Below, in pieces: positions 9,953 to 34,380 of a stretch of 64,000 bases of DNA. The position numbers were made by a program, and so were the translations under genes. How positions within the stretch are numbered: the stretch's first letter is position 1; each line of letters starts with the position of its first letter. The notes beneath the pieces were generated by a model. The model did no database searches and had not been told where the DNA came from. It saw only the letters and a list, made by a program, of their open reading frames with translations. Location of the stretch: the IMG/VR virus record IMGVR_UViG_3300008120_000139, positions 7,658 through 71,657 of that record; one strand, 5' to 3'. Source of the DNA: a virus.

Positions 9953-12235
9953 TTACCCTCCTGTACCAGTTTTTACAGGATTTCCATTGCTATCAGTAAC
10001 AATACCGCCTGTACCAGTACCCACAGTGTTACCTTGAAGTTGCCCTAAGAAACATTCGTAAAAACCTTTTTTCTTTGCTTTAATATCAGGAGTATTAAAA
10101 CCAACAGACTTACATGCTGCTTCAAAATATCCAGGATCTGTTTGAGCTACTTTACATCTATCAAGCATGTATTTTACACTTACTTCAGCAGCAATTGCTG
10201 GATCCATTAGTAATTTTGGATTTCCTATTAGATCTTGACCGACCATTTGACCATACCTCGTGTAGTTTCCTCGACCAGTTAGCTGAATATACCCACGACC
10301 TATGAAATTAGCTCCATCACCTGGTAATGTATTTCCTAAACCTTTTCCTTTAGCTGTTGTATGTCCGTATAAAAATTCAGGTAAACTATTATTAGGATTG
10401 CCAGCATACTGTTGTGCTAGTGCCTTATCACCTTTAAATACACTAGGAAATACTTGTAATAATCTGTCAGCAGAATAATTAAAGTTTTCTTCAACTAGTT
10501 TCCAACGACATTCACCACCTGCTATGCCTAATAAGCTTGCTATAGCATAAGGACTTGTTAATCCATACTTTGCACATGCTGCTTTCAAAGCTGCAATACC
10601 TGCTTGAGACGCACTAGCATTTATTTCTTTAGCATATTCTGGTGTACAAGTACCTGCAACAACAGCTTCTTGATTAGCCGGAGGTTGTTCGCCTGCAGCA
10701 GGATTTGGAGCAATCCCACTTGCTGATCTATCAGCAAGTGTAACATCAGTAGATGTAGAGCTAAATTGAACAGGGTTAAAGTTTTCATGCTGCGGCCATG
10801 GTTCGTGTGTAGGAACCCGTTGCATAATACTTTTTATATCAGACGATTTATAGAAATTACCGTTATCCCATCCTGCATTAAATTTTCTATTTGGCAAATT
10901 AAATAATGGAAGCTCAGGGGGTTGTTCTGCAGGATCTGCACTTGCTGGGGCAGCAGCGGCTGGGCCATTAAGATCTATTCTGGTACCAGAAGCTGTAATA
11001 TTTCCGTTAGCACCGAGATTCATTGTTGCTGCTGTACCAATGTTGATATTTCCTTCTGCTCCTAAATTAAGTGTATCACCTGATGTTATTTTAATAGCAT
11101 CTGTTACACTTAGATTGAACAATGCTCCTACAGATATTTTAGCAGTCTCGCCTATAATTTGATCATGTGTTCCCCTAATTGCAATTTTAGAATGATCATT
11201 AACAACAAGATAATGATAACCATTAACATTTGTTTCCATATTTTTATTAGCTCTGATATTAATATTTCTACCTGCTTCTAAGTTAATATCTCTATCTGCT
11301 CTAAAATTAAAATCTGCTTCTGTATGTATACTAATACTATCTTGAGAAAAAATATCAATTTTTCCATTGCTAGTTAATTCAATCCATGCAGTACCTTTGC
11401 TATTTCCAATATAGATTAAATCTTGACTGTTATGTAATAATATTTGATGGCCTGTTCTTGTTCTTAATCTAACTAATTCGTTTTGCCCTTGACTATCACC
11501 ATCATCCATTACAAAAGTTGTTCCACCTAGTCTACTGATAGGAATACTAAACTTTTCATCTTTATATCCAACTTGATCAGATCTACCGTTTGGATCTATT
11601 GGTCCAGGTGTACTAATTCCAAACACTTGACTAGGTACTTCACGTCTTGCAGAACTAGACGTAACACCGCGTGTTAAATCTGCTAATAGTCCCTGTTGTC
11701 TTAATCTATCTGCAAAAGGATGTATCGGTTTCTTAATAGAATTAATATTAGGATTTGATAAAGTTTCACTAGATTTATGATATTCTGCAACTGGCAGATA
11801 ATCTGTTCCATATTGTCTTCTTTGTTCTTCAGTTATATGAACATTTTTACTAGCAGCAATCCCAGGAATCATATGATTTTGAAATTTATCTGTGATGCAT
11901 CCAAACCAATATCCTTGATTAGGATCTCCATCAATAAAAATAACCATAACTCTGGTACCTATATCAGGAGGAATCATCCAGAATCCATAACTTTTTTGTA
12001 CGTCGCTGAATTTTTTCGGATCTGGTCCTTCAAACCTTATAGATGTATTTCCTGCAAAAGGGCTAAGATACTTAACAGCGTATGTTTCTCCTTGATTTTC
12101 AACAACGTTAGAAATGCCTTTTATCAAAGCAACTTCTAAACTTCCCATGTAAGTTGTATCTAAGTGATTTGTTACTTCAGCTAAAAAAGGACCTGGAGAA
12201 GGCAATGCCCCTCTTTTTCTTGTTTCTAATGTCAT
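9953..12235 (-). CDS. gp5: Baseplate central spike (gp5/VgrG-like) with C-terminal glycoside hydrolase family 19-like domain
   Basis: OB-fold-type PPDIGTRVMVIF...GYWFG, spike motif LRTRTGHQILL, beta-helical repeat stretch, C-terminal EENFNYS...FIGRGYIQLTGRGNY GH19-type motifs. Confidence 0.8.
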   Translation of the reverse strand: MTLETRKRGALPSPGPFLAEVTNHLDTTYMGSLEVALIKGISNVVENQGETYAVKYLSPFAGNTSIRFEGPDPKKFSDVQKSYGFWMIPPDIGTRVMVIFIDGDPNQGYWFGCITDKFQNHMIPGIAASKNVHITEEQRRQYGTDYLPVAEYHKSSETLSNPNINSIKKPIHPFADRLRQQGLLADLTRGVTSSSARREVPSQVFGISTPGPIDPNGRSDQVGYKDEKFSIPISRLGGTTFVMDDGDSQGQNELVRLRTRTGHQILLHNSQDLIYIGNSKGTAWIELTSNGKIDIFSQDSISIHTEADFNFRADRDINLEAGRNINIRANKNMETNVNGYHYLVVNDHSKIAIRGTHDQIIGETAKISVGALFNLSVTDAIKITSGDTLNLGAEGNINIGTAATMNLGANGNITASGTRIDLNGPAAAAPASADPAEQPPELPLFNLPNRKFNAGWDNGNFYKSSDIKSIMQRVPTHEPWPQHENFNPVQFSSTSTDVTLADRSASGIAPNPAAGEQPPANQEAVVAGTCTPEYAKEINASASQAGIAALKAACAKYGLTSPYAIASLLGIAGGECRWKLVEENFNYSADRLLQVFPSVFKGDKALAQQYAGNPNNSLPEFLYGHTTAKGKGLGNTLPGDGANFIGRGYIQLTGRGNYTRYGQMVGQDLIGNPKLLMDPAIAAEVSVKYMLDRCKVAQTDPGYFEAACKSVGFNTPDIKAKKKGFYECFLGQLQGNTVGTGTGGIVTDSNGNPVKTGTGG

Positions 12236-17774: not shown

Positions 17775-18788
17775 ATGTCCTTGTTTAAAAAGGTAGCTTG
17801 TTTTACAGATATACATTTCGGGCTTAAATCAAACTCAACAACTCATCTAAACGATTGCGAAGAATTCGTTGATTGGTATATTGCCGAAGCAAAAAAGGCT
17901 GGATGCGAAACTGGCATCTTCTTAGGAGATTGGAGTCACAATCGTAACAGCCTTAATCTAATTACACTTGATAGTAGTATCCGCTGCTTAGAAAAGCTCG
18001 GTGCTGCATTTGAACAGTTTTTTTGGTTTCCAGGAAATCACGATTTGTTCTATAAAGATAAACGTGATATCCATAGTTCAGCATTTGGGCGGCATATTCC
18101 AGGCGTCACTGTAGTCGAAAATGTAACTACCATAGGTGATGTGACTTTAGTACCGTGGTTGGTAAGTGACGAATGGAAAGAAATCAGCAAAGTTAAAAGC
18201 CGATACATGTTCGGTCACTTTGAACTACCATTGTTCTATATGAATGCGATGGTTCAAATGCCCAATCACGGAGAACTTCAACTTGAACACTTCAAACATC
18301 AAGAATATGTGTTTAGTGGTCATTTTCATATACGACAAAATCGTGGAAAAATTTGGTATATAGGCAATGCGTTTCCACATGATTTCGGTGACGCCTGGGA
18401 CGATAAACGTGGTATGATGATTTTAGAATGGGGAGGAGAACCTCAATTTATTGATTGGCCTAACTGTCCTAAGTTTAGAACTATTAACCTTAGCGATCTA
18501 ATTGATAAAAAAGATACAATAATGAAAAGTAAAATGTATCTGAGAATTAATCTAGATATTGATATCAGCTTTGAAGAAGCTAATTTTATTAAAGAAACAT
18601 TTAGCAACGATTACGATGTTAGAGAAATTAGCCTAATACAAGACAAAATAAGCTTAGATACCACAGTCGACGATAACCCAGATACAAAATTTGAAAGTGT
18701 TGATCAAATAGTTACAAAAAGTTTAGTTGCAGTCGAATCGGAACAGTTTGACAAAAAAGTTTTATTAGATATCTACAATAATTTATGA
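17775..18788 (+). CDS. gp47: Recombination endonuclease subunit, Mre11/SbcD-like
   Basis: Metallophosphoesterase motifs DIHFG, GDW, GNHD, GHFE, SGHFH. Confidence 0.92.
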   Translation: MSLFKKVACFTDIHFGLKSNSTTHLNDCEEFVDWYIAEAKKAGCETGIFLGDWSHNRNSLNLITLDSSIRCLEKLGAAFEQFFWFPGNHDLFYKDKRDIHSSAFGRHIPGVTVVENVTTIGDVTLVPWLVSDEWKEISKVKSRYMFGHFELPLFYMNAMVQMPNHGELQLEHFKHQEYVFSGHFHIRQNRGKIWYIGNAFPHDFGDAWDDKRGMMILEWGGEPQFIDWPNCPKFRTINLSDLIDKKDTIMKSKMYLRINLDIDISFEEANFIKETFSNDYDVREISLIQDKISLDTTVDDNPDTKFESVDQIVTKSLVAVESEQFDKKVLLDIYNNL

Positions 18789-20566
18789 GCTTCTTAATTA
18801 AAAATATTACCGTGAAAAATTTTATGAGTGTGGGTAACCAAACTCAAGCAGTGGATTTTGATCAAGAACAATTAACATTGGTATTAGGTAGCAATTTGGA
18901 CCTTGGTGGAGACGATTCTGGTTCAAGAAATGGTACTGGAAAAACAACTATTATCAATGCATTGAGCTATGCACTTTACGGTCAAGCATTAACAAATATC
19001 AAAAAAGAAAATTTAATCAATAAAATCAATGGAAAACATATGCTTGTTACCGTTGAATTTATAAAAAATAATAAAAAATACAGGATCGAAAGAGGTCGAA
19101 AGCCTAATATCCTAAAACTGTTTGTTGATAATCAACAAATTAAGGCCGAAGATGACGACGAAAGTCAAGGTGATAGCCGAGAAACTCAAAAATCTATTGA
19201 GCAACTATTAGAACTAAGTCATACTATGTTCAAACACTTAGTTGCGTTAAACACATATACTGAACCTTTTTTAAGTATGCGAGCGGCAGATCAAAGAGAA
19301 GTAATTGAACAACTTCTTGGCATCACATTATTGAGCGAAAAGGCCGAAATACTTAAAGTTTCAGTTAAAGAAACTAAAGATGCTATACAACATGAACAAT
19401 ATAGAATAGAAAGTGTTAAAACTGCTAACGAAAATGTGCAAAAAAGCATTGATAGTCTTAAATTAAAAAGTTCTGCCTGGGATAAAAAGTTCCAACAGGA
19501 CATAGAAAACACTGCTAAAGCCATAATGGAGTTAGAAAATGTTGATATTGAAAAAGAATTAGAAAAGCATTTACTTTTAATACAATGGTTAGCCAACGAT
19601 GCAAAGCTTACAGTACTAAAAAAACAACAAGCAACATTAGAAAATGCTGTTACTCAAGCAGGAAAAACCTGTGACAAATATTCTAAAGAGTTAGAAAAAC
19701 TAAAAGATAAAACTTGTCCAGCATGTGAACAAGAACTACATGATCATAAACATGACGAAATGGTCGCGCTGGTTCAAAAAAATCTCGAAGATGCAAATAC
19801 CTATGCTAAAAAAGTTATCAACGATTACGGATTGATTGTTAACGAAATAGAAGCAATCGGCGCATTAGGTAAAAAACCTTCTACATTTTATGAAACAGAA
19901 AAAGAAGCTTTAAGTCATAAAAATAATCTTGAGCAACTAAACAAAACTTTAGAATCAAAATTAACTGAAAAAAATCCCTATGATGAACAAATCATCGAAC
20001 TAAAGAAAACAGCTATACAAGAAATATCATGGGATAAGATTAATAATCTATCTAAATTACGTGATCATCAAGAGTTTTTACTAAAATTATTAACTAATAA
20101 AGATAGTTTTATACGTAAAAAGATTATAGATCAAAATTTATCATATCTTAACAAAAGATTAGGATATTATATTGATAAGTTAGGATTACCGCATCAAGTT
20201 ATTTTTCAAAATGACTTAAATGTTCAAATAACACAGCTAGGTCAAGATTTAGATTTTGATAATTTAAGTCGTGGAGAGCGTAACAGACTAATTTTAAGTA
20301 TGAGTTTTGCTTTCCGAGATGTCTGGGAAGGTTTATATCAACATATCAATTTATTGTTTATTGATGAATTAGTTGATTCCGGAATGGATTCTGCTGGGGT
20401 TGAATCAGCCATTGCCATCTTAAAGAAGATGGCCAGAGAAAGAAATAAAAATATCTATCTAATTAGTCACAAAGATGAGCTAATTGGTAGAGTTAATAAT
20501 GTTCTACGTGTAGTAAAAGAAAACGGATTTACAAATTATTCCAATAATATAGATTATGTCGGATGA
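18785..20566 (+). CDS. gp46: Recombination ATPase subunit, Rad50/SbcC-like
   Basis: KNFMSVGN, Walker A RNGTGKTT, coiled coil with CPAC zinc hook, signature LSRGE, Walker B LLFIDE, ISH. Confidence 0.93.
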   Translation: MSFLIKNITVKNFMSVGNQTQAVDFDQEQLTLVLGSNLDLGGDDSGSRNGTGKTTIINALSYALYGQALTNIKKENLINKINGKHMLVTVEFIKNNKKYRIERGRKPNILKLFVDNQQIKAEDDDESQGDSRETQKSIEQLLELSHTMFKHLVALNTYTEPFLSMRAADQREVIEQLLGITLLSEKAEILKVSVKETKDAIQHEQYRIESVKTANENVQKSIDSLKLKSSAWDKKFQQDIENTAKAIMELENVDIEKELEKHLLLIQWLANDAKLTVLKKQQATLENAVTQAGKTCDKYSKELEKLKDKTCPACEQELHDHKHDEMVALVQKNLEDANTYAKKVINDYGLIVNEIEAIGALGKKPSTFYETEKEALSHKNNLEQLNKTLESKLTEKNPYDEQIIELKKTAIQEISWDKINNLSKLRDHQEFLLKLLTNKDSFIRKKIIDQNLSYLNKRLGYYIDKLGLPHQVIFQNDLNVQITQLGQDLDFDNLSRGERNRLILSMSFAFRDVWEGLYQHINLLFIDELVDSGMDSAGVESAIAILKKMARERNKNIYLISHKDELIGRVNNVLRVVKENGFTNYSNNIDYVG

Positions 20567-20879
20567 AGAATTAAAAAAATACCAAGCATTGTATTCAAAA
20601 TTTTTAGAAGAAGTAGTTAATTTACATAAAGTACATATACTTTTCTTAAAATTTTATGGTCGCAGAACCAAATTCGACATACATCGTATTAACAAGAGCA
20701 TAATTACGATACAAAAAGAATTACATAAAAGTAGCACTAGAGCGTATGACGAGCATCGTAATAATACTAAAGAAAAATTGGCTAATAAACGTTTAGAACG
20801 TGCTCACAGAAAAGCAAATCCGTTAAAGCGTGGTCCAAAGAAAAAGAATGACATGGGTACATCAGAATCAAACAGTTGA
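20556..20879 (+). CDS. Hypothetical basic helical protein
   Basis: 107-aa ORF overlapping both neighbours in the operon. Confidence 0.65.
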   Translation: MSDEELKKYQALYSKFLEEVVNLHKVHILFLKFYGRRTKFDIHRINKSIITIQKELHKSSTRAYDEHRNNTKEKLANKRLERAHRKANPLKRGPKKKNDMGTSESNS

Positions 20880-21276
20880 TACATTACCGGAAGATTGTGT
20901 AGGTTTTGTATATATCATTACGAATCTATCAACTGGCAAAAAATATATTGGCAAAAAATTAAGCAAATTTAGTAAAACGACCTACAAGACTGTAAAGTTA
21001 AAGAACGGCAACAAAAAACGTAAAAGAATCAAAAGCAAAATAGAATCAGACTGGCAAACTTATTATGGCTCAAACACACAATTAAACGAAGATGTAAAAC
21101 AATTAGGCACAGATAAGTTCAGTAGAGAAATATTATATTATTGCAAATCAAAAGCGGAGTGCTCTTATATAGAAGCAAAACTTCAATTTGAATACCGTGT
21201 ATTAGAATCAGACGATTATTACAACGGCCACATTCAAGTCCGCGTCCATGGCTCACACATAAAATCTAAAATTTAA
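20848..21276 (+). CDS. Small GIY-YIG family endonuclease
   Basis: GFVYIITNLSTGKKYIGKK (GIY-YIG variant), SDWQTYYGS, FSREIL, YYN; ATG at 20848 (MTWVHQ) preferred over GTG 20830. Confidence 0.8.
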   Translation: MTWVHQNQTVDTLPEDCVGFVYIITNLSTGKKYIGKKLSKFSKTTYKTVKLKNGNKKRKRIKSKIESDWQTYYGSNTQLNEDVKQLGTDKFSREILYYCKSKAECSYIEAKLQFEYRVLESDDYYNGHIQVRVHGSHIKSKI

Positions 21277-21284
21277 TCTAACAC

Positions 21285-21756
21285 TTAAGGTTGGCGGGCC
21301 AGTTTGTAATGCCGCTGTGGAAAACCCGGGGCAGAAACCGGACACGTAACATAGTGATGTACTCCCGTCGGTAGATCCGACTATCCTGAAAGATGGAAGT
21401 GAGTCTGAGAGCACGAACCCTTATGCTCGACACGTTGCTATAGTATGAATGTTAGCATACGAAAAACCGTGCTATAAAAACTTAAACACTAGGAACGAAG
21501 TTTAAGGCGCTTGTTAAGCGAGTCGATGTAGGTTGGGAAAGGTTAGAGCCCATTAGCAACACGGTAAAATACCTACTTCCAATGTCTTGGCTGGGTGCAA
21601 CTCACATGAAAAAGACTTGATGGAACCTGCAAAAGGTTCCGTCTGACCGAAACAATCTACATGAATATTAGTTTGCTTCGTGTTACTTCGCAAAAATTCA
21701 TAATAAAAAGTTGCTCTGAATCGAAGATGAAAGAGCAGGAGAGATACTCTCTCCTT
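21285..21756 (+). ncRNA. Candidate large structured non-coding RNA of unknown class
   Basis: ORF-free and visibly GC-richer than flanks; more than 12 complementary segment pairs, e.g. GATGGAACCT/AGGTTCCGTC (21619-43), CTTAAAC/GTTTAAG (21481-506), GTAGGT/ACCTAC (21528-33/21571-76), GTTGCTA/TAGCAAC (21434-40/21554-60). Strand inferred from G-U pairs and operon direction. Confidence 0.7.
21737..21756 (+). terminator. Hairpin closing the structured region, possible terminator or 3' end
   Basis: AGGAGAGA-tac-TCTCTCCT; U-tract weak. Confidence 0.4.
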
Positions 21757-21801
21757 AATCAGTTAAAATAAATAAATAAAATAAAACTTTTAGGACTTGC
21801 T

Positions 21802-24090
21802 ATGACTAAATTTGATACAACTATCTACAGATTCCCCTTACTAGAGTCAGTTTATAAAAATGCTAACCCAAGATTAGCACAAGATCTAGTAATAATGAGA
21901 GAGAATTTCTTAATTCCCTACTATCGTTATCTAGATAGTTTAACTAGATTTCATATCTTTGAGGGTAAACCTGTAGAAGATACAAATGCATTATTCACTG
22001 CAATTAAGAAAGAAATCGACGGCGGTACAGGAATCCATGGTAAAGCTAATTTAACATTTATTGGAAAAATTGTTGAGAAACTAATGCCCGCAGCTATGGC
22101 AGATAAGTTTTTCAAAGGTCTTCCAGATCCTGCAACAAGTCAACCAGTTCAAAATTACGATGCACAAGCACAAAAAGCAATTAGTGCAATGCCTCCTAAA
22201 GCCAAAGCTGATGCACAGCAACTAATTGCAGTCGGTAAGAAAAATGCCAAATTACAAGGTTATATTGTAGGTGCGTTGACTGTAGGATCACAAATTCTTG
22301 CTAAATTTGGAGGTACTTACGGTGCTTCAATGGGCATTCCTCCACAACTAACTGGTGCTGTCATTGGTGCAATTAGTGGTGGTTTAATTGCTGGAATTGC
22401 TGCTAAGATGTATGGCAAGCCTTGGGGTGAAGCATTTAAACAAGGTATCAAAGGTGCCCTAGCTGGCGGCGCGGCTGGTGCTTTAGGCGGATTATTAGGA
22501 GGCGGTGCAACAGGAAGTAGTGGAGGCGGTGCATCTCCTGACCCTGCCGCGTTTGATCAAGCAGATAATTTTGTACCAGATGAACCTTCAGGGTCTGCTC
22601 CGACACCTGCTGCTAGTACCGGCAGCGGTGCAGGAAGCAACACACCTCAAATTGCAGGTGGATCTGGCGGTACACCTGAATTAGGCCCGCCTAGTGCTAC
22701 TACACCTGATCCTGCTTTACAAGGTACAACTGATAATTCTCCTGATGCTGCTGCGGCCGATCAAGCACAAGCAGATAATTACACACCTAATGAACCTGCA
22801 GGAGCTGCACCTCAGATGACGGCACCTCAAGTAATGCAATCTGATTGGTTTAGTCAATTAAGTCCGGAAGCACAACAATGGATGGGCAGTGCTGATAAGA
22901 ATGATCCTTTTATCCTTCAAAGATTAATTCAAGCAATTCCTAATGCAGCAAGTGTTATACCACCTGAATTAATTAGTCAAGACGCTATGAATGCTGCAAG
23001 AGGTGCGGTAAATGCCGCAGGTGGGCCGAATGTTGAAGAAAGTCGAGAAATAAATGTTAATCGTTTAGTCGAGCAGGGTATTGTTGACGCCAATGCAACA
23101 ATATTAACTTATCGAATTGCAGAAGCAGTTGGTCGTACAAGACCTCGAAGTGTCCAGTTAACTAATGAAGGTATTGGTGATATGTTTAAAAAGGCAGGGT
23201 CTTGGTTAAAGACTAAAGCTCAAAATGCCACACAAACAGTAACTGTTGATAAATTAAATCAAGCTTGGATGAAAGCAGGAAGCCCAAGCGATAGCGATCA
23301 AATTGCAGATATACTAAAAGCATCTAAAGTACCTGATACTGTTATTGCTAAAGTATATGCAGATATGGGTCTGCCTGCACCAGGTGGTACAGGTGCAGCT
23401 CAAGGTGGCGCAGGTGCAGCTCAAGGTGGCGCAGGTGCAGCTCAAGGAGATGAGCTTGATCAAGTAAGAAAAAATGCAGGAATGGGTGCATTTGGGCAAA
23501 TGGCCGGACAATTAGCATCTGCACCTACTACATCTAGCACGGGTGGCACAACAACCGGTGTTTCTGGAGTAGGTTCCGGAGTTGTTAAACATACAGCAAA
23601 TCCAAATAATCCAAATATGAAAGCAGCAGCTACACCTACTAATACAAAAGAACCAAGTAGTGCGCCTTCCGGCGGAACAGATGCAATGCGTTCAATGATG
23701 AATTTATTAAGTCCGCAGCCACAAAAACAAGGAAATAGTGCACCAGCAGCTCAACCAGCAGCTCCTAAACAAGCAGGCGCAATTCCAAAACCATATTCTG
23801 TACCTGGAGCAGTTACTCCTACAAATGTAAAATTTTCCGGCATGGCTGCTGGAAAGCCTGCTGCTCAAGCACCTGCGGCGCAACAAGCAGCACCAGAAGC
23901 ACCTCAAAAGAAACACACTGGCGGTAAAGTAGCTGGACAAGTAAGTCAAACTCCTAATGCAATTCGAAAGAGAGATGCACGGGCACAAAAAGCTATAGCA
24001 GCTGATAGAGAACGTTTATTACCTGATTACGGTGGTGTAAAAGAAAGTACTACTAAATTTTACAGTAAGTTTTTAGGAATAGAAATTTAA
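21802..24090 (+). CDS. Ala/Gly/Pro-rich low-complexity protein with glycine-zipper segments; possible internal virion protein
   Basis: 762-aa ORF with TAAATA motifs (21769-78) and AGGA SD upstream; GAVIGAISGGLIAG and GALAGGAAGALGGLLGGG segments. Confidence 0.7.
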   Translation: MTKFDTTIYRFPLLESVYKNANPRLAQDLVIMRENFLIPYYRYLDSLTRFHIFEGKPVEDTNALFTAIKKEIDGGTGIHGKANLTFIGKIVEKLMPAAMADKFFKGLPDPATSQPVQNYDAQAQKAISAMPPKAKADAQQLIAVGKKNAKLQGYIVGALTVGSQILAKFGGTYGASMGIPPQLTGAVIGAISGGLIAGIAAKMYGKPWGEAFKQGIKGALAGGAAGALGGLLGGGATGSSGGGASPDPAAFDQADNFVPDEPSGSAPTPAASTGSGAGSNTPQIAGGSGGTPELGPPSATTPDPALQGTTDNSPDAAAADQAQADNYTPNEPAGAAPQMTAPQVMQSDWFSQLSPEAQQWMGSADKNDPFILQRLIQAIPNAASVIPPELISQDAMNAARGAVNAAGGPNVEESREINVNRLVEQGIVDANATILTYRIAEAVGRTRPRSVQLTNEGIGDMFKKAGSWLKTKAQNATQTVTVDKLNQAWMKAGSPSDSDQIADILKASKVPDTVIAKVYADMGLPAPGGTGAAQGGAGAAQGGAGAAQGDELDQVRKNAGMGAFGQMAGQLASAPTTSSTGGTTTGVSGVGSGVVKHTANPNNPNMKAAATPTNTKEPSSAPSGGTDAMRSMMNLLSPQPQKQGNSAPAAQPAAPKQAGAIPKPYSVPGAVTPTNVKFSGMAAGKPAAQAPAAQQAAPEAPQKKHTGGKVAGQVSQTPNAIRKRDARAQKAIAADRERLLPDYGGVKESTTKFYSKFLGIEI
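23390..23447 (+). repeat. 21-bp in-frame tandem repeat, ~2.8 copies (GAAQGGA)
   Basis: caggtgcagctcaaggtggcg at 23390 and 23411, partial copy at 23432. Confidence 0.9.
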
Positions 24091-33619: not shown

Positions 33620-33632
33620 ATTAAATATAGTG

Positions 33633-33680
33633 TCTAGATTATTATGCGGTACCCACCGCGTATGACCCTAGAACGGTCGC
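33633..33680 (+). promoter_or_regulatory. Structured 5' leader: two hairpins and a possible pseudoknot
   Basis: TATGCGGT/ACCGCGTA (33643-62), TGACC/GGTCG (33663-79), loop CTAGA complementary to TCTAG at 33633-37; follows TAAATA 33622-27. Confidence 0.45.
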
Positions 33681-33699
33681 ATTATAAAGGAGAAAACAA

Positions 33700-34380
33700 A
33701 TGGGACGTCCAATTAAATCAAAATATTTCGGAACACGTAAAGGCCTAGGAGTTGCTGGTGAAGGTGTTCTTAGTGTTACAAATCCAGCAGGTACATTAGC
33801 AGGATTAGTAGCTGGAACTTATGCAATTCCTGCAGGTAGCATTGGTGCTCCACAAATTGCAGGAGGTTCAAAGCCATCACTAAATGTTGTAGCAACAAAT
33901 TCTACTACTTATACTGTTGCAGTTGTGTCAGCAGGATCAGGTTATACTAGTGCTCCAGCAATTACATTTAACGGTAGTATTGCTGGCGGTTCAGGAAGCG
34001 CTACACCTGTTGCTACTTTAACAACAAGTGTATTAAATATCATCGATTGTACCGCATATATTCCTACTGTTAACGGCGGAAGCAGTGCAGTATCGGGCGA
34101 TATTCAAGAACAAGTTGCTAGTAAAAAGTATCGTGTAGTAACTGCTCAAGGTACAGGTGCTTGCAAACTAGTTCCTACAGATTCATTAACAGCAGGCCAA
34201 ATGTACATTGGTGCAACAGACGTTAATGGTAGTACATACTTTGTTAAAAAGTTAACTGCTCGTCGTGCGGTATTAATACAAAATGTTGTAAATGGTTCGT
34301 TTGAATTTGCAGATAACGAAGCTGCTGGATGGACTTTAGATGCTGCTTCTGCAGGTGTTGTACAAATTGATAATAGATAA
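33700..34380 (+). CDS. Virion structural protein (possible head decoration protein)
   Basis: Gly/Ala/Thr-rich with AGSGYTSAP motif; own late promoter, AAGGAG SD and terminator, directly after the capsid gene. Confidence 0.6.
   Translation: MGRPIKSKYFGTRKGLGVAGEGVLSVTNPAGTLAGLVAGTYAIPAGSIGAPQIAGGSKPSLNVVATNSTTYTVAVVSAGSGYTSAPAITFNGSIAGGSGSATPVATLTTSVLNIIDCTAYIPTVNGGSSAVSGDIQEQVASKKYRVVTAQGTGACKLVPTDSLTAGQMYIGATDVNGSTYFVKKLTARRAVLIQNVVNGSFEFADNEAAGWTLDAASAGVVQIDNR

What the first reader, a model, noticed from the sequence alone, without database searches (positions are those of the whole stretch)
21285..21756. ~470-nt pseudoknot-rich candidate ncRNA directly downstream of a GIY-YIG nuclease
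Seen in the sequence: this is by far the longest ORF-free gap in a tightly packed window and is GC-richer than its flanks. Local hairpins: CCGG/CCGG 21326-41, GTCGG/CCGAC 21367-81, GAGCA/TGCTC 21409-28, GTATG/CATAC 21443-60, CTTAAAC/GTTTAAG 21481-506, CGCTT/AAGCG 21508-20, TGGG/CCCA 21534-52, GTCTT/AAGAC 21584-616, GATGGAACCT-GCAAA-AGGTTCCGTC 21619-43, ATGAAT/ATTCAT 21661-701, TGCTCT/AGAGCA 21712-37. Long-range pairings abut each other: TGGAA 21394-98 with TTCCA 21577-81 next to GTAGGT 21528-33 with ACCTAC 21571-76. Crossing, pseudoknot-type pairings: GTGAGT 21399-404/ACTCAC 21600-05, GTTGCTA 21434-40/TAGCAAC 21554-60, ACCGT 21466-70/ACGGT 21561-65, and loop GTAGAT 21371-76/ATCTAC 21655-60. 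I could not find hallmark motifs of tRNA, tmRNA, RNase P, or group I/II introns. Inference: a large compact RNA comparable in complexity to phage-associated RNAs such as GOLLD or ROOL, possibly an undescribed class.
Basis: partly seen in the sequence, partly recalled or inferred. Interest (0 to 1): 0.9.

Follow-up and report, generated by a model that had tools for sequence, protein, structure and literature searches.

The report
Twin-word structured RNA of lake phages
The gene-free stretch behind a small nuclease gene of this uncultured T4-like lake phage encodes a real, knotted non-coding RNA of about 470 bases that carries one 7-letter word twice; it is a divergent form of a large RNA family shared by lake phages and mobile islands of small freshwater bacteria, and its job is still unknown.

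Summary
Window 21285-~21757 (+) is a real structured RNA gene. It is the longest ORF-free stretch of the window (525 nt against 137). Its GC is 0.44 against 0.30-0.32 in the flanks. On 87 homologues, 85.1% of cells pair against 75.8% in shuffles, with 560 double-change cells against 195 (0/500). Two pseudoknots are supported (P5/P8 and a 3-bp loop contact).

Three of his four crossing pairings and ATGAAT/ATTCAT do not.

No Rfam family matches the window, even at E<=10. In most relatives the first ~140 nt of the same element is Polynucleobacter-1 (RF01718; 15/19 loci). The shared 3' part is uncatalogued. It carries a word twice (here ACAUGAA after CUC and after UCU). The two copies match within a genome and differ between genomes.

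Full-length copies also lie in bacterial chromosomes without the nuclease, beside a divergent DUF6641 gene (23/25). The nuclease family also occurs without the RNA.

Function is unknown. My best guess is a trans-acting scaffold that displays two identical words.

This scan found the same family before on other DNA. This window holds its RF01718-negative variant.

The parts
20830..21276 (+). Upstream neighbour, not shown to be a functional part: small GIY-YIG protein (148 aa). In these phages it is the last ORF of the gp47-gp46 operon before the RNA.
   Evidence: Pfam PF19835, E 1.6e-32. PHROG 447, E 2e-36. 590 relatives in viral contigs. 479 phage records.
21285..21757 (+). The whole RNA gene, about 470 nt. 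It runs from the conserved UAAGGUU start to the terminator-like hairpin.
   Evidence: ORF-free in 80 homologous loci, 68 of them unique sequences. Covariation. G-U pairs fit only the + strand: P1 shows GU:61/AU:26 and P3 shows UG:81 and GU:82.
21286..21441 (+). 5' domain, type A:
- P1: 21293-97 / 21312-16
- P2: 21326-29 / 21338-41
- P3 (long-range): 21351-59 / 21433-41. It encloses P3a, P3b and P3c.
- P3a: 21367-71 / 21377-81
- P3b: 21384-86 / 21395-97
- P3c: 21409-13 / 21424-28
   Evidence: P1 100% paired, P3 99.3% with 3 pairs changed on both sides, P3a 96.2%, P3b 96.8%. The P3 extension 21359/21433 has WC 1.00. No RF01718 match at E<=10.
21443..21460 (+). P4 hairpin (GUAUG/CAUAC).
   Evidence: 98.4% paired, 3 pairs with double changes.
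21466..21576 (+). Pseudoknotted core:
- P5: 21466-70 / 21561-65 plus 21471-74 / 21554-57
- P6: 21481-87 / 21500-06, with the invariant loop GGAACGA
- P7: variable hairpin, 21508-20
- Loop contact: 21525-27 / 21542-44
- P8: 21528-33 / 21571-76, which crosses P5
- P9: 21534-37 / 21549-52
   Evidence: P5: 86 of 86 sequences, cognate -11.5 against non-cognate -7.8 kcal/mol. P8 97.9% and P9 98.0%. 21527/21542: CG:63, UG:9, GC:8, UA:5, AU:2, WC 1.00. I read the two neighbouring pairs of that contact by eye on A2.
21584..21616 (+). Twin unit 1. It is the P10 hairpin (GUCUU/AAGAC), whose loop holds CUC (21601-03) followed by word 1, ACAUGAA (21604-10).
   Evidence: Word positions. P10 is only partly supported: 73% and 30% on a poor alignment. 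Twin rule.
21619..21643 (+). P11 hairpin between the two words. Its 3' strand, GGUUCCGUC, is invariant in type A.
   Evidence: 98.2% paired. Changes are mostly G-U/A-U/C-G on one side; 1 pair has double changes. In type B the stem is replaced by UUUGCCC/GGGCAAA (read by eye).
21641..21665 (+). Twin unit 2: GUCUGACC, a linker, then UCU (21656-58) followed by word 2, ACAUGAA (21659-65).
   Evidence: The two words are identical in 85 of 90 type-A sequences although identity was not imposed. Two more are identical with other anchors.
21672..21694 (+). Variable 3' hairpin (UUUGC/GCAAA) with a GCUUCG loop motif.
   Evidence: Shared with L089, L135, L002, L090 and L085 in the alignment. Read by eye; not counted.
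21712..21737 (+). Family-wide 3' hairpin: stem, GA, small hairpin, GAA, stem. The window's version is UGCUCU-GA-AUCGAAGAU-GAA-AGAGCA.
   Evidence: Stems differ between relatives while the loop is kept (by eye). The motif GAGCG..AGCGA is present in 20 of 25 bacterial loci.
21737..21755 (+). Terminator-like hairpin (GGAGAGA UAC UCUCUCC), the likely 3' end.
   Evidence: The scan called it on the - strand. The same stem exists on the + strand but is followed by a weak U tract.

Best explanation
Shown: 21285-~21757 (+) is a gene for a non-coding RNA of about 470 nt with several domains and two pseudoknots.

It is the RF01718-negative ('type A') variant of the full-length Polynucleobacter-1 / twin-word RNA family. 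The family has two kinds of carrier:
- Uncultured freshwater T4-like phages carry one copy per genome record, at the 3' end of the gp47-gp46-(small ORFs)-GIY-YIG gene row.
- Chromosomes of small-genome Burkholderiales carry it in regions that hold an integrase gene, always beside a divergent DUF6641 gene.

Inferred: it is made as the tail of the early/middle replication-recombination transcript. No promoter-like or terminator-like site separates it from the nuclease gene. It then acts in trans as a folded scaffold.

Most likely mechanism, about 0.3 on its own: the conserved knotted core holds two copies of one short, lineage-specific, purine-rich word. Here the word is ACAUGAA, once after CUC and once after UCU, 55 nt apart, on either side of the invariant P11 hairpin. 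A partner reads the letters of both copies, probably by base pairing. That would make the RNA a two-site decoy or adaptor for a factor that is not encoded next to it.

The GIY-YIG nuclease is a neighbour, not a demonstrated partner.

The confidence given (0.4) is for the whole statement. That it is a real structured RNA of this family I put at about 0.95.
For: Real RNA:
- 85.1% of cells pair against 75.8% in shuffles. There are 560 double-change cells against 195. Both measures have 0 of 500 shuffles as high. Slid controls give 34.5-44.7%.
- P5 forms in 86 of 86 sequences.
- New pairs with WC 1.00 were found by mutual information.
- Variants in contigs of four lake metagenome runs are compensatory at 21354/21438 and 21485/21502, and in one run at 21410/21427. 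At 21527 and 21544 they turn G-U pairs into G-C.

Family:
- 80 of 160 syntenic loci match an nhmmer profile, all on the + strand just after the upstream ORF.
- RF01718 occupies the first ~140 nt in 15 of 19 loci and in 83 of 112 unique segments.
- There is one copy in each of three records of 245-356 kb.

Twin words:
- The two words are identical in 133 of 161 records by a strict rule, and in 85 of 90 type-A sequences without imposing identity.
- Flanking columns that the rule did not impose also agree: 98% and 73% in type B, 78% in type A.
- L127 and L129 differ at 6 of 407 positions. Two of the six are the same A>G in both words.

Independence from the nuclease:
- Bacterial copies lack the GIY-YIG gene. 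23 of 25 have DUF6641 instead.
- The Melnitz phage record has the nuclease but no RF01718 match.
Against: - No transcript evidence: no RNA run holds the stretch.
- No partner for the words was found. There is no Watson-Crick covarying column inside the RNA. There is no reverse complement within 800 nt (5 hits against 15 for the control). The word and its complement are neither enriched nor depleted in the window (6 against 6.1 expected; 1 against 4.0), nor in the 96%-complete 356-kb record G002 (48 against 41; 39 against 36).
- Thermodynamic folding does not show word 2 as exposed. Unpaired probability is 0.41 against an RNA mean of 0.43; word 1 is 0.57 (60 type-A sequences were folded; the script stopped at 60).
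- Identity is looser in bacterial copies: 18 of 23 are exact, 3 have one mismatch, 2 have two.
- The 5' domain and the twin-word domain share no covarying pair, so one transcript is inferred from constant spacing only (145-202 nt).
Confidence: 0.4

Rival explanations
1. Template with re-alignment sites. The two identical words let a nascent copy made on the ~55-nt segment jump back from word 1 to word 2. A polymerase would then make tandem repeats, as in the telomerase RNA template or the DRT2 defence RNA.
For: It explains identity without any complementary partner, which is what the searches found. It explains the fixed asymmetry, CUC before one word and UCU before the other. It also explains mismatches mostly at word edges. 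The DRT2 principle is described in passages of bioRxiv 10.64898/2026.09.22.753630. The repeated alignment motifs of DRT2 and telomerase RNA are my recollection.
Against: - No RVT_1 reverse transcriptase in 0 of 4 phage records, including the 96%-complete one.
- In bacteria the constant neighbour is a ~150-aa DUF6641 protein, too small for a polymerase.
- The segment between the words is a conserved hairpin with an invariant strand, more like a binding site than a template.
- The spacing varies from 47 to 64 nt.
Confidence: 0.1
2. Precursor with two identical cutting sites. A sequence-reading endoribonuclease cuts at both words and releases the ~55-nt P11 hairpin RNA, as with CRISPR repeats or type III antitoxin repeats.
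For: - Two like units, each followed by a hairpin.
- The invariant P11 strand lies between the words.
- The bacterial copies sit in regions that also hold defence genes: ZorD, and a type III restriction-modification system.
Against: - The units are only partly alike and are embedded in a large conserved fold.
- The 'spacer' is conserved rather than variable.
- A protein nuclease would have to change specificity as fast as the words change. L127 and L129 are 98.5% identical yet carry different words.
- No PADLOC match for the immediate neighbours: 7 of the 8 proteins tested had none, and ZorD was the one that matched.
Confidence: 0.12
3. RNA guide or cofactor of the adjacent GIY-YIG nuclease. 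This is the nuclease-RNA module proposed in the companion note e1-6188917.
For: Constant adjacency and the same strand in these phages. In nearly all of the 80 loci that match, the ORF just upstream is of the GIY-YIG's size (141-150 aa). No promoter-like or terminator-like site lies between them.
Against: - The RNA occurs in 25 bacterial loci without the nuclease.
- In L102 and L105 another ORF lies between the nuclease gene and the RNA.
- The nuclease family is in 479 phage records, mostly cyanophages. The closest isolate has only a 148-nt gap after the gene and no RF01718 match.
- No target for the words was found in phage DNA.
Confidence: 0.05
4. Not a trans-acting RNA. Instead a cis element (leader or 3' UTR structure controlling a neighbouring gene), or a DNA-level site (origin, recombination or packaging site).
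For: - It lies between the end of an early/middle gene row and late genes that have T4-late-promoter-like TATAAATA boxes in relatives.
- Weinberg et al. 2010 marked Polynucleobacter-1 as possibly cis-regulatory. I saw only its table row.
- Direct repeats could be protein-binding sites in DNA.
Against: - The downstream gene differs between relatives: + strand proteins of varying length, or a 72-aa ORF on the - strand. It differs again in bacteria.
- Helices keep G-U pairs that would be C-A mismatches on the other strand.
- About 470 nt with two pseudoknots is far more than known leaders need.
Confidence: 0.08

Closest known systems
Polynucleobacter-1 RNA motif (Rfam RF01718). Source: Weinberg et al. 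2010, Genome Biol 11:R31, PMC2864571. I saw only its table row, which reads 'Burkholderiales, fresh water/estuary'.
   Same: In most relatives the first ~140 nt of the homologous element match RF01718 at 65-121 bits. The same twin-word 3' domain follows, 145-202 nt later. By eye, the window's 5' domain keeps a similar plan:
- a first hairpin whose loop starts GCCA,
- a GGAAA linker,
- a long-range helix that encloses an ACUAUCC...GGA(N)GAAG hairpin.
   Different: - The window's copy is not recognised by the model, even at E<=10, nor by an nhmmer profile of the motif.
- It lacks the motif's second hairpin.
- The catalogued motif covers 141 nt. The RNA here is about 470 nt, and its pseudoknotted core and twin words are in no Rfam family.
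GOLLD, ROOL and OLE: large ornate RNAs of bacteria and phages. Source: Kretsch et al. 2025, PMC12286853, search listing and abstract only.
   Same: Large, highly structured RNAs of unknown job, found by comparative genomics in phages or mobile DNA and in lake samples.
   Different: No match to their Rfam models. This RNA is smaller. Nothing here shows that it forms multimers. The twin words have no counterpart that I know of in those RNAs (recalled).
RNAs with repeated alignment words around a template: the telomerase RNA template (recalled) and the DRT2 defence ncRNA (passages of bioRxiv 10.64898/2026.09.22.753630).
   Same: Two short direct repeats must be identical to each other. They are free to differ between lineages, and they have no complementary partner in the RNA.
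   Different: No reverse transcriptase in the four phage records. The inter-word segment is a conserved hairpin. No product is known.
Repeat RNAs read twice by one protein: type III antitoxin repeats (ToxI) and CRISPR mini-arrays or solitary repeats of phages (recalled, not tested against sequences).
   Same: Direct repeats in phage or mobile-element RNA. The bacterial copies sit among defence genes.
   Different: Only about 20 nt of each unit are alike. There are two units only. The intervening segment is conserved. The units are part of a large knotted fold.

Membership tests
Polynucleobacter-1 (Rfam RF01718) | A match to the Rfam covariance model at or above its gathering score (37 bits). 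| tested here: not met
   No match in the window at gathering, nor at E<=10 in 20500-22000. Four type-A relatives (L105, L111, L153, L159) were also negative, while 15 other loci scored 65-121 bits.
Polynucleobacter-1 (Rfam RF01718) | The consensus architecture printed by cmscan: three 5' hairpins, then a long-range helix that encloses two hairpins. | tested here: inconclusive
   The window has P1, P2 and the long-range P3, which encloses P3a-c. It lacks the second hairpin. The correspondence rests on my reading of the consensus, not on a score.
Full-length Polynucleobacter-1 / twin-word RNA (uncatalogued; this scan's working name) | Sequence homology of the 3' two-thirds with the elements that carry RF01718. 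| tested here: met
   nhmmer with the window alone hits RF01718-bearing loci (L002, L083-85, L090; E 5e-9 to 2e-17). The profile reaches 80 of 160 loci.
Full-length Polynucleobacter-1 / twin-word RNA (uncatalogued; this scan's working name) | Two identical 7-nt words, each after a pyrimidine triplet, 47-64 nt apart, with a hairpin between them. | tested here: met
   CTC+ACATGAA at 21601-10 and TCT+ACATGAA at 21656-65. P11 lies between them.
Full-length Polynucleobacter-1 / twin-word RNA (uncatalogued; this scan's working name) | The 3' hairpin with a GA / GAA internal loop around a small capped stem. | tested here: met
   21712-21737, read by eye. The common loop motif is in 20 of 25 bacterial loci. 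The window has a variant loop (GAAUCGAAGAUGAA).
GOLLD, ROOL, HEARO, OLE, RNase P RNA, group I / II introns, tmRNA, tRNA | A match to the family's Rfam model, or an ARAGORN call. | tested here: not met
   cmscan of the whole window at gathering gave only freshwater-2 at 33624-33702. The permissive scan of 20500-22000 gave only chance-level microRNA/sRNA hits. ARAGORN found 0 genes.
Template RNA of a reverse transcriptase (telomerase-like, DRT2-like) | A reverse transcriptase encoded with the RNA, or at least in the same genome. | tested here: not met
   PF00078 in 0 of 4 phage records, G000-G003, one of them 96% complete. The control genomes did match.
Nuclease with guide RNA | The RNA and the nuclease co-occur obligately. 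| tested here: not met
   25 bacterial RNA loci lack the GIY-YIG gene. The nuclease family occurs without the RNA in the Melnitz phage record.

The most novel reading that the evidence does not exclude
The twin words are a new kind of RNA feature: two sites kept identical to each other, rather than complementary to anything. Either they serve as jump-back (re-alignment) points for reiterative copying of the ~55-nt segment between them, or they are a two-site address read by base pairing by a host factor that differs between host lineages. In either case, T4-like lake phages and the mobile islands of their probable hosts would be using the same programmable RNA against each other.
Probability: 0.12. 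Interest if true: 0.9.

Novelty: new variant of a known kind. Interest (0 to 1): 0.72.

Why it matters
- An orphan motif catalogued in 2010 turns out to be only the first third of a ~450-nt knotted RNA. At least hundreds of uncultured freshwater T4-like phage contigs carry it. So did about one in nine sampled genomes of one large genus of small freshwater bacteria (17 of 151).
- This window adds a widespread subfamily (at least 119 contigs) that the Rfam model misses entirely. Catalogue-based annotation therefore leaves the gene invisible.
- Identity covariation of two words with no complementary partner is unusual for a structured RNA. It gives a simple experiment: change one word, then both.
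- Some of the bacteria that carry the island copy may be culturable. That would make a phage RNA of uncultured viruses testable.
- The constant DUF6641 neighbour gives a first candidate protein partner.

Tried and rejected
Searches that found nothing:
- blastn against 50,697 GenBank phage records found nothing, with the window's RNA or with a type-B RNA.
- No RNA holder was listed among public runs for window 20830-22300. 20 DNA holders from 18 studies were listed, mostly lake or freshwater metagenomes. Expression is therefore untested. The DNA contigs laid show presence and variants only.
- The genome-contig scan with a GC-rich 17-mer was a poor choice. Of 120 stretches, 119 were chance matches and one (L263) was a short phage-like contig in a MAG.

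Ideas about the words that I rejected:
- A cis anti-word.
- A trans target or self-avoidance in phage DNA.
- Stop-codon or RF2 mimicry. UGA/UAA stands at positions 4-6 of most phage words, but not in ACAGAAA, not in ACAGGAA, and not in any bacterial word such as AGCGAAA.
- A C/D-box or k-turn between the words, and antiparallel self-pairing. Positions 1 and 7 show all combinations.
- A CsrA GGA site. It is absent from most words.
- Mini-ORFs ending at the words. No start codon is conserved (by eye).

Other points:
- A loop-to-strand pairing GUUAGA/UCUGAC is 95.4% paired. Its outer letters are better explained by the covarying contact 21525-27/21542-44. The rest never varies, so it is left open.
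- DUF6641: the Atlas returned only its own family. It is absent from the four phage records.
- Papers. Polynucleobacter-1 occurs in one paper of the library, Weinberg 2010. Fremin et al. 2023 (PMC10690425, passages only) predicted IMG/VR structured RNAs of 29-151 nt and excluded Rfam hits. Pieces of this RNA may be among their 8,495 candidates, but the supplements are closed, so I could not check. Searches for a description of the full RNA found none.
- Corrections to my notes: notes 3 and 4 give 16/21 and 19/25. The recount is 18/23 exact twins and 20/25 loop motifs.
Full report
**What is there.**
- The window is a fragment of an uncultured T4-like phage (IMG/VR record, CheckV completeness 20%).
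- On the + strand lie gp47-like SbcD (17775-18788), gp46-like SMC/SbcC (18785-20566), a basic 107-aa ORF, and a 148-aa GIY-YIG protein (20830-21276; PF19835 E 1.6e-32, PHROG 447 E 2e-36).
- Then come 525 nt without any ORF of 60 aa or more on either strand. That is the longest such stretch of the window; the next is 137 nt.
- A 762-aa low-complexity ORF follows, and then baseplate genes on the - strand.
- The gap has GC 0.436, against 0.30-0.32 beside it.
- The + strand folds better than its shuffles (z -2.48, 0 of 100). The - strand does not stand out (z -1.25).
- No Rfam family matches the gap at gathering score or at E<=10. ARAGORN finds nothing.

**Relatives.**
- I fetched 80 loci through the GIY-YIG protein (590 relatives exist) and 80 through gp46 (504 relatives).
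- The window's gap alone finds 22 of these 160 loci by nhmmer. One profile round finds 80.
- All matches are on the + strand, directly after the ORF upstream. The intervals are ORF-free and 385-666 nt long where complete (68 unique sequences).
- In L102 and L105 an extra small ORF lies between the nuclease gene and the element.

**Structure.** I aligned 87 distinct type-A sequences (A2) and counted a structure written from the window.
- 85.1% of cells pair, against 75.8% in shuffles.
- There are 560 cells with changes on both sides, against 195 (0 of 500 shuffles for both measures).
- Slid controls give 34.5-44.7%.
- Well-supported helices are P1, P2, P3 (the long-range helix 21351-59/21433-41), P3a, P3b, P4, P6, P8, P9 and P11.
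- MAFFT misaligned P5. An alignment-free test shows a bipartite duplex at the same place in 86 of 86 sequences. Cognate pairs average -11.5 kcal/mol and 974 non-cognate pairs average -7.8. Many different letter combinations occur.
- P5 (21466-74 / 21554-65) and P8 (21528-33 / 21571-76) cross, so the core is a pseudoknot.
- Mutual information added 21359/21433. It also added 21527/21542 (CG:63, UG:9, GC:8, UA:5, AU:2). By eye on A2, that second pair is part of a 3-bp contact between the strand before P8 and the loop of P9. This is a second knot.
- G-U pairs that alternate with A-U or G-C fix the strand as +.
- Contigs of four lake metagenome runs carry variants that are compensatory at three of these pairs. 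At two more positions they turn G-U pairs into G-C.

His words are all present. Nine of the eleven local hairpins are supported at least in part, and two of those nine sit in variable regions.
- GTAGGT/ACCTAC and ACCGT/ACGGT are confirmed.
- TGGAA/TTCCA is conserved but untestable.
- GTGAGT/ACTCAC, GTAGAT/ATCTAC, GTTGCTA/TAGCAAC and ATGAAT/ATTCAT are not supported.

**What family it is.**
- A look-up of earlier notes of this scan named Polynucleobacter-1 as the closest known motif. I tested that lead. On 19 relatives, cmscan places RF01718 at 65-121 bits on the first ~140 nt of the element in 15. The four negatives are type A, like the window.
- An nhmmer profile of the motif hits 83 of 112 unique segments. 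The motif's end lies 145-202 nt before the first word.
- Of 20 leftover loci, 2 are positive. So there are at least three kinds of 5' domain on one shared 3' domain.
- Three records of 245-356 kb hold one copy each.
- The only paper in the library that names the motif lists it in a table as a possible cis-regulator from Burkholderiales and fresh water.
- So the catalogued motif is the 5' third of a much larger RNA. The window holds a variant that the catalogue cannot see.
- I infer that the two parts are one transcript from their constant spacing and from the absence of a terminator. No covarying pair links them.

**The twin words.**
- Before the look-up I had noticed two direct repeats that change in parallel between relatives.
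- By a strict rule (CTC plus 7 letters, then TCT plus the same 7 letters 30-130 nt later), 133 of 161 records have them, in 14 kinds.
- Of the 28 without, most are cut short. Four have twins behind other anchors. L061 is cut at its locus end. L076 and L158 show nothing.
- In type A, without imposing identity, 85 of 90 are identical, 2 differ at position 7, and 2 more are identical with other anchors.
- Identity extends into flanks that the rule did not impose.
- L127 and L129 are 98.5% identical, yet they differ by the same A>G in both words.
- The words have no Watson-Crick covarying partner in the RNA and no nearby reverse complement.
- The word and its complement show no excess or deficit in the window or in a 96%-complete 356-kb relative.

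**Beyond phages.**
- RF01718 is over its cut-off in 3 of 151 genomes sampled from an order of Betaproteobacteria-type genomes. It is over its cut-off in 17 of 151 genomes of one large genus with 1.1-2.8-Mb genomes, often on ~2-Mb contigs.
- These copies are full length. They have twin words (18 of 23 readable loci exact, 3 with one mismatch, 2 with two) and the family's 3' hairpin (20 of 25).
- None has the GIY-YIG gene beside it.
- 23 of 25 have a DUF6641 gene divergently placed 120-190 nt before the RNA's 5' end. The two exceptions are a locus with only 65 nt of flank and a short contig with a phage-type word.
- Small tyrosine recombinases lie 0.7-1.3 kb downstream in several loci. ZorD, or a type III restriction-modification system, lies nearby in two.
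- DUF6641 is absent from four phage records.
- Conversely, the GIY-YIG family is in 479 phage records. In the closest isolate, a methylophage, it is followed by a 148-nt gap, and the record has no RF01718 match.

**How it most likely works.**
- Shown: a conserved, knotted RNA gene that is independent of the nuclease.
- Inferred: it is transcribed as the tail of the early/middle gene row (no promoter-like site between) and acts in trans.
- The fast, digital, coordinated change of two words argues for a reader that recognises letters, most simply by base pairing, and needs the same word twice. I put this two-site display model at about 0.3.
- Rivals: jump-back sites for reiterative copying (0.10; no reverse transcriptase in four records), paired cutting sites (0.12), a cis or DNA element (0.08), and a nuclease guide (0.05).
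- Thermodynamic folding gives no clear sign that word 2 is exposed. This counts against my model as much as against the others.

**Verdict.**
The claim of an undescribed class must be narrowed.
- The family was glimpsed in 2010 as a 141-nt orphan, and this scan has met the full-length RNA on other DNA.
- New here are the type-A subfamily that escapes RF01718, its tested structure with two knots, and, as far as the notes I saw go, the constant DUF6641 neighbour of the bacterial copies.

Noticed in passing
window 33624-33702 (+): A freshwater-2 RNA (Rfam RF02980, 59.2 bits, gathering score 49.9). It ends at an AUG preceded by AAGGAG, so it is a known cis-regulatory motif upstream of a gene.
   Followed up: no
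bacterial loci L420-L449 (G handles), e.g. L424:10873-11340 (+) beside the RNA at L424:~10210-10718 (-): In 23 of 25 bacterial copies a DUF6641 (PF20346) gene lies divergently 120-190 nt before the RNA's 5' end. One genome (G055) has three DUF6641 genes but one RNA. DUF6641 is absent from four phage records.
   Followed up: partly
L424 (G055:C4:62000-81999) and L425 (G097:C1:640000-659999): The bacterial copies sit in island-like regions. One has a ZorD (Zorya) gene and a 212-aa tyrosine recombinase. The other has a type III restriction-modification pair and DUF6876. Further small recombinases lie downstream in L435 and L436.
   Followed up: partly
window 21712-21737; relatives: A family-wide 3' hairpin: variable stem, GA, a GC-capped GNRA-type mini-hairpin, GAA, stem. 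The internal loop looks like tandem sheared G-A pairs. It may be a protein-binding or processing element.
   Followed up: partly
L102:6665-6985 and L105:7434-7694; L102:6043-6267 and L105:6064-6258: Some relatives carry an extra small Cys-rich ORF (86-106 aa) between the nuclease gene and the RNA. They also carry a small ORF upstream with a histone-Hc1-like GNSAAGTR..RKAL motif. The motif name is recalled and was not scanned.
   Followed up: no
L325 (viral contig), region printed: A chimeric element. It has a type-A first hairpin joined to a type-B-like 3' half, with only a 5-letter twin (GACAA). This suggests domain shuffling between subfamilies.
   Followed up: no
window 21802-24090 (+) and its counterparts in relatives: The gene after the RNA is a low-complexity Ala/Gly/Pro/Thr-rich protein. 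Its length ranges from 160 to 762 aa between relatives, and in some it is absent, leaving the RNA next to the - strand 72-aa ORF. No Pfam or PHROG family matches it.
   Followed up: no
window 20830-21276 and 479 phage records: The small GIY-YIG family (PHROG 447) is widely labelled 'NAD synthetase' in phage records, which looks like a propagated misannotation. It is a conserved gene of T4-like cyanophages and relatives rather than a sporadic homing endonuclease.
   Followed up: partly
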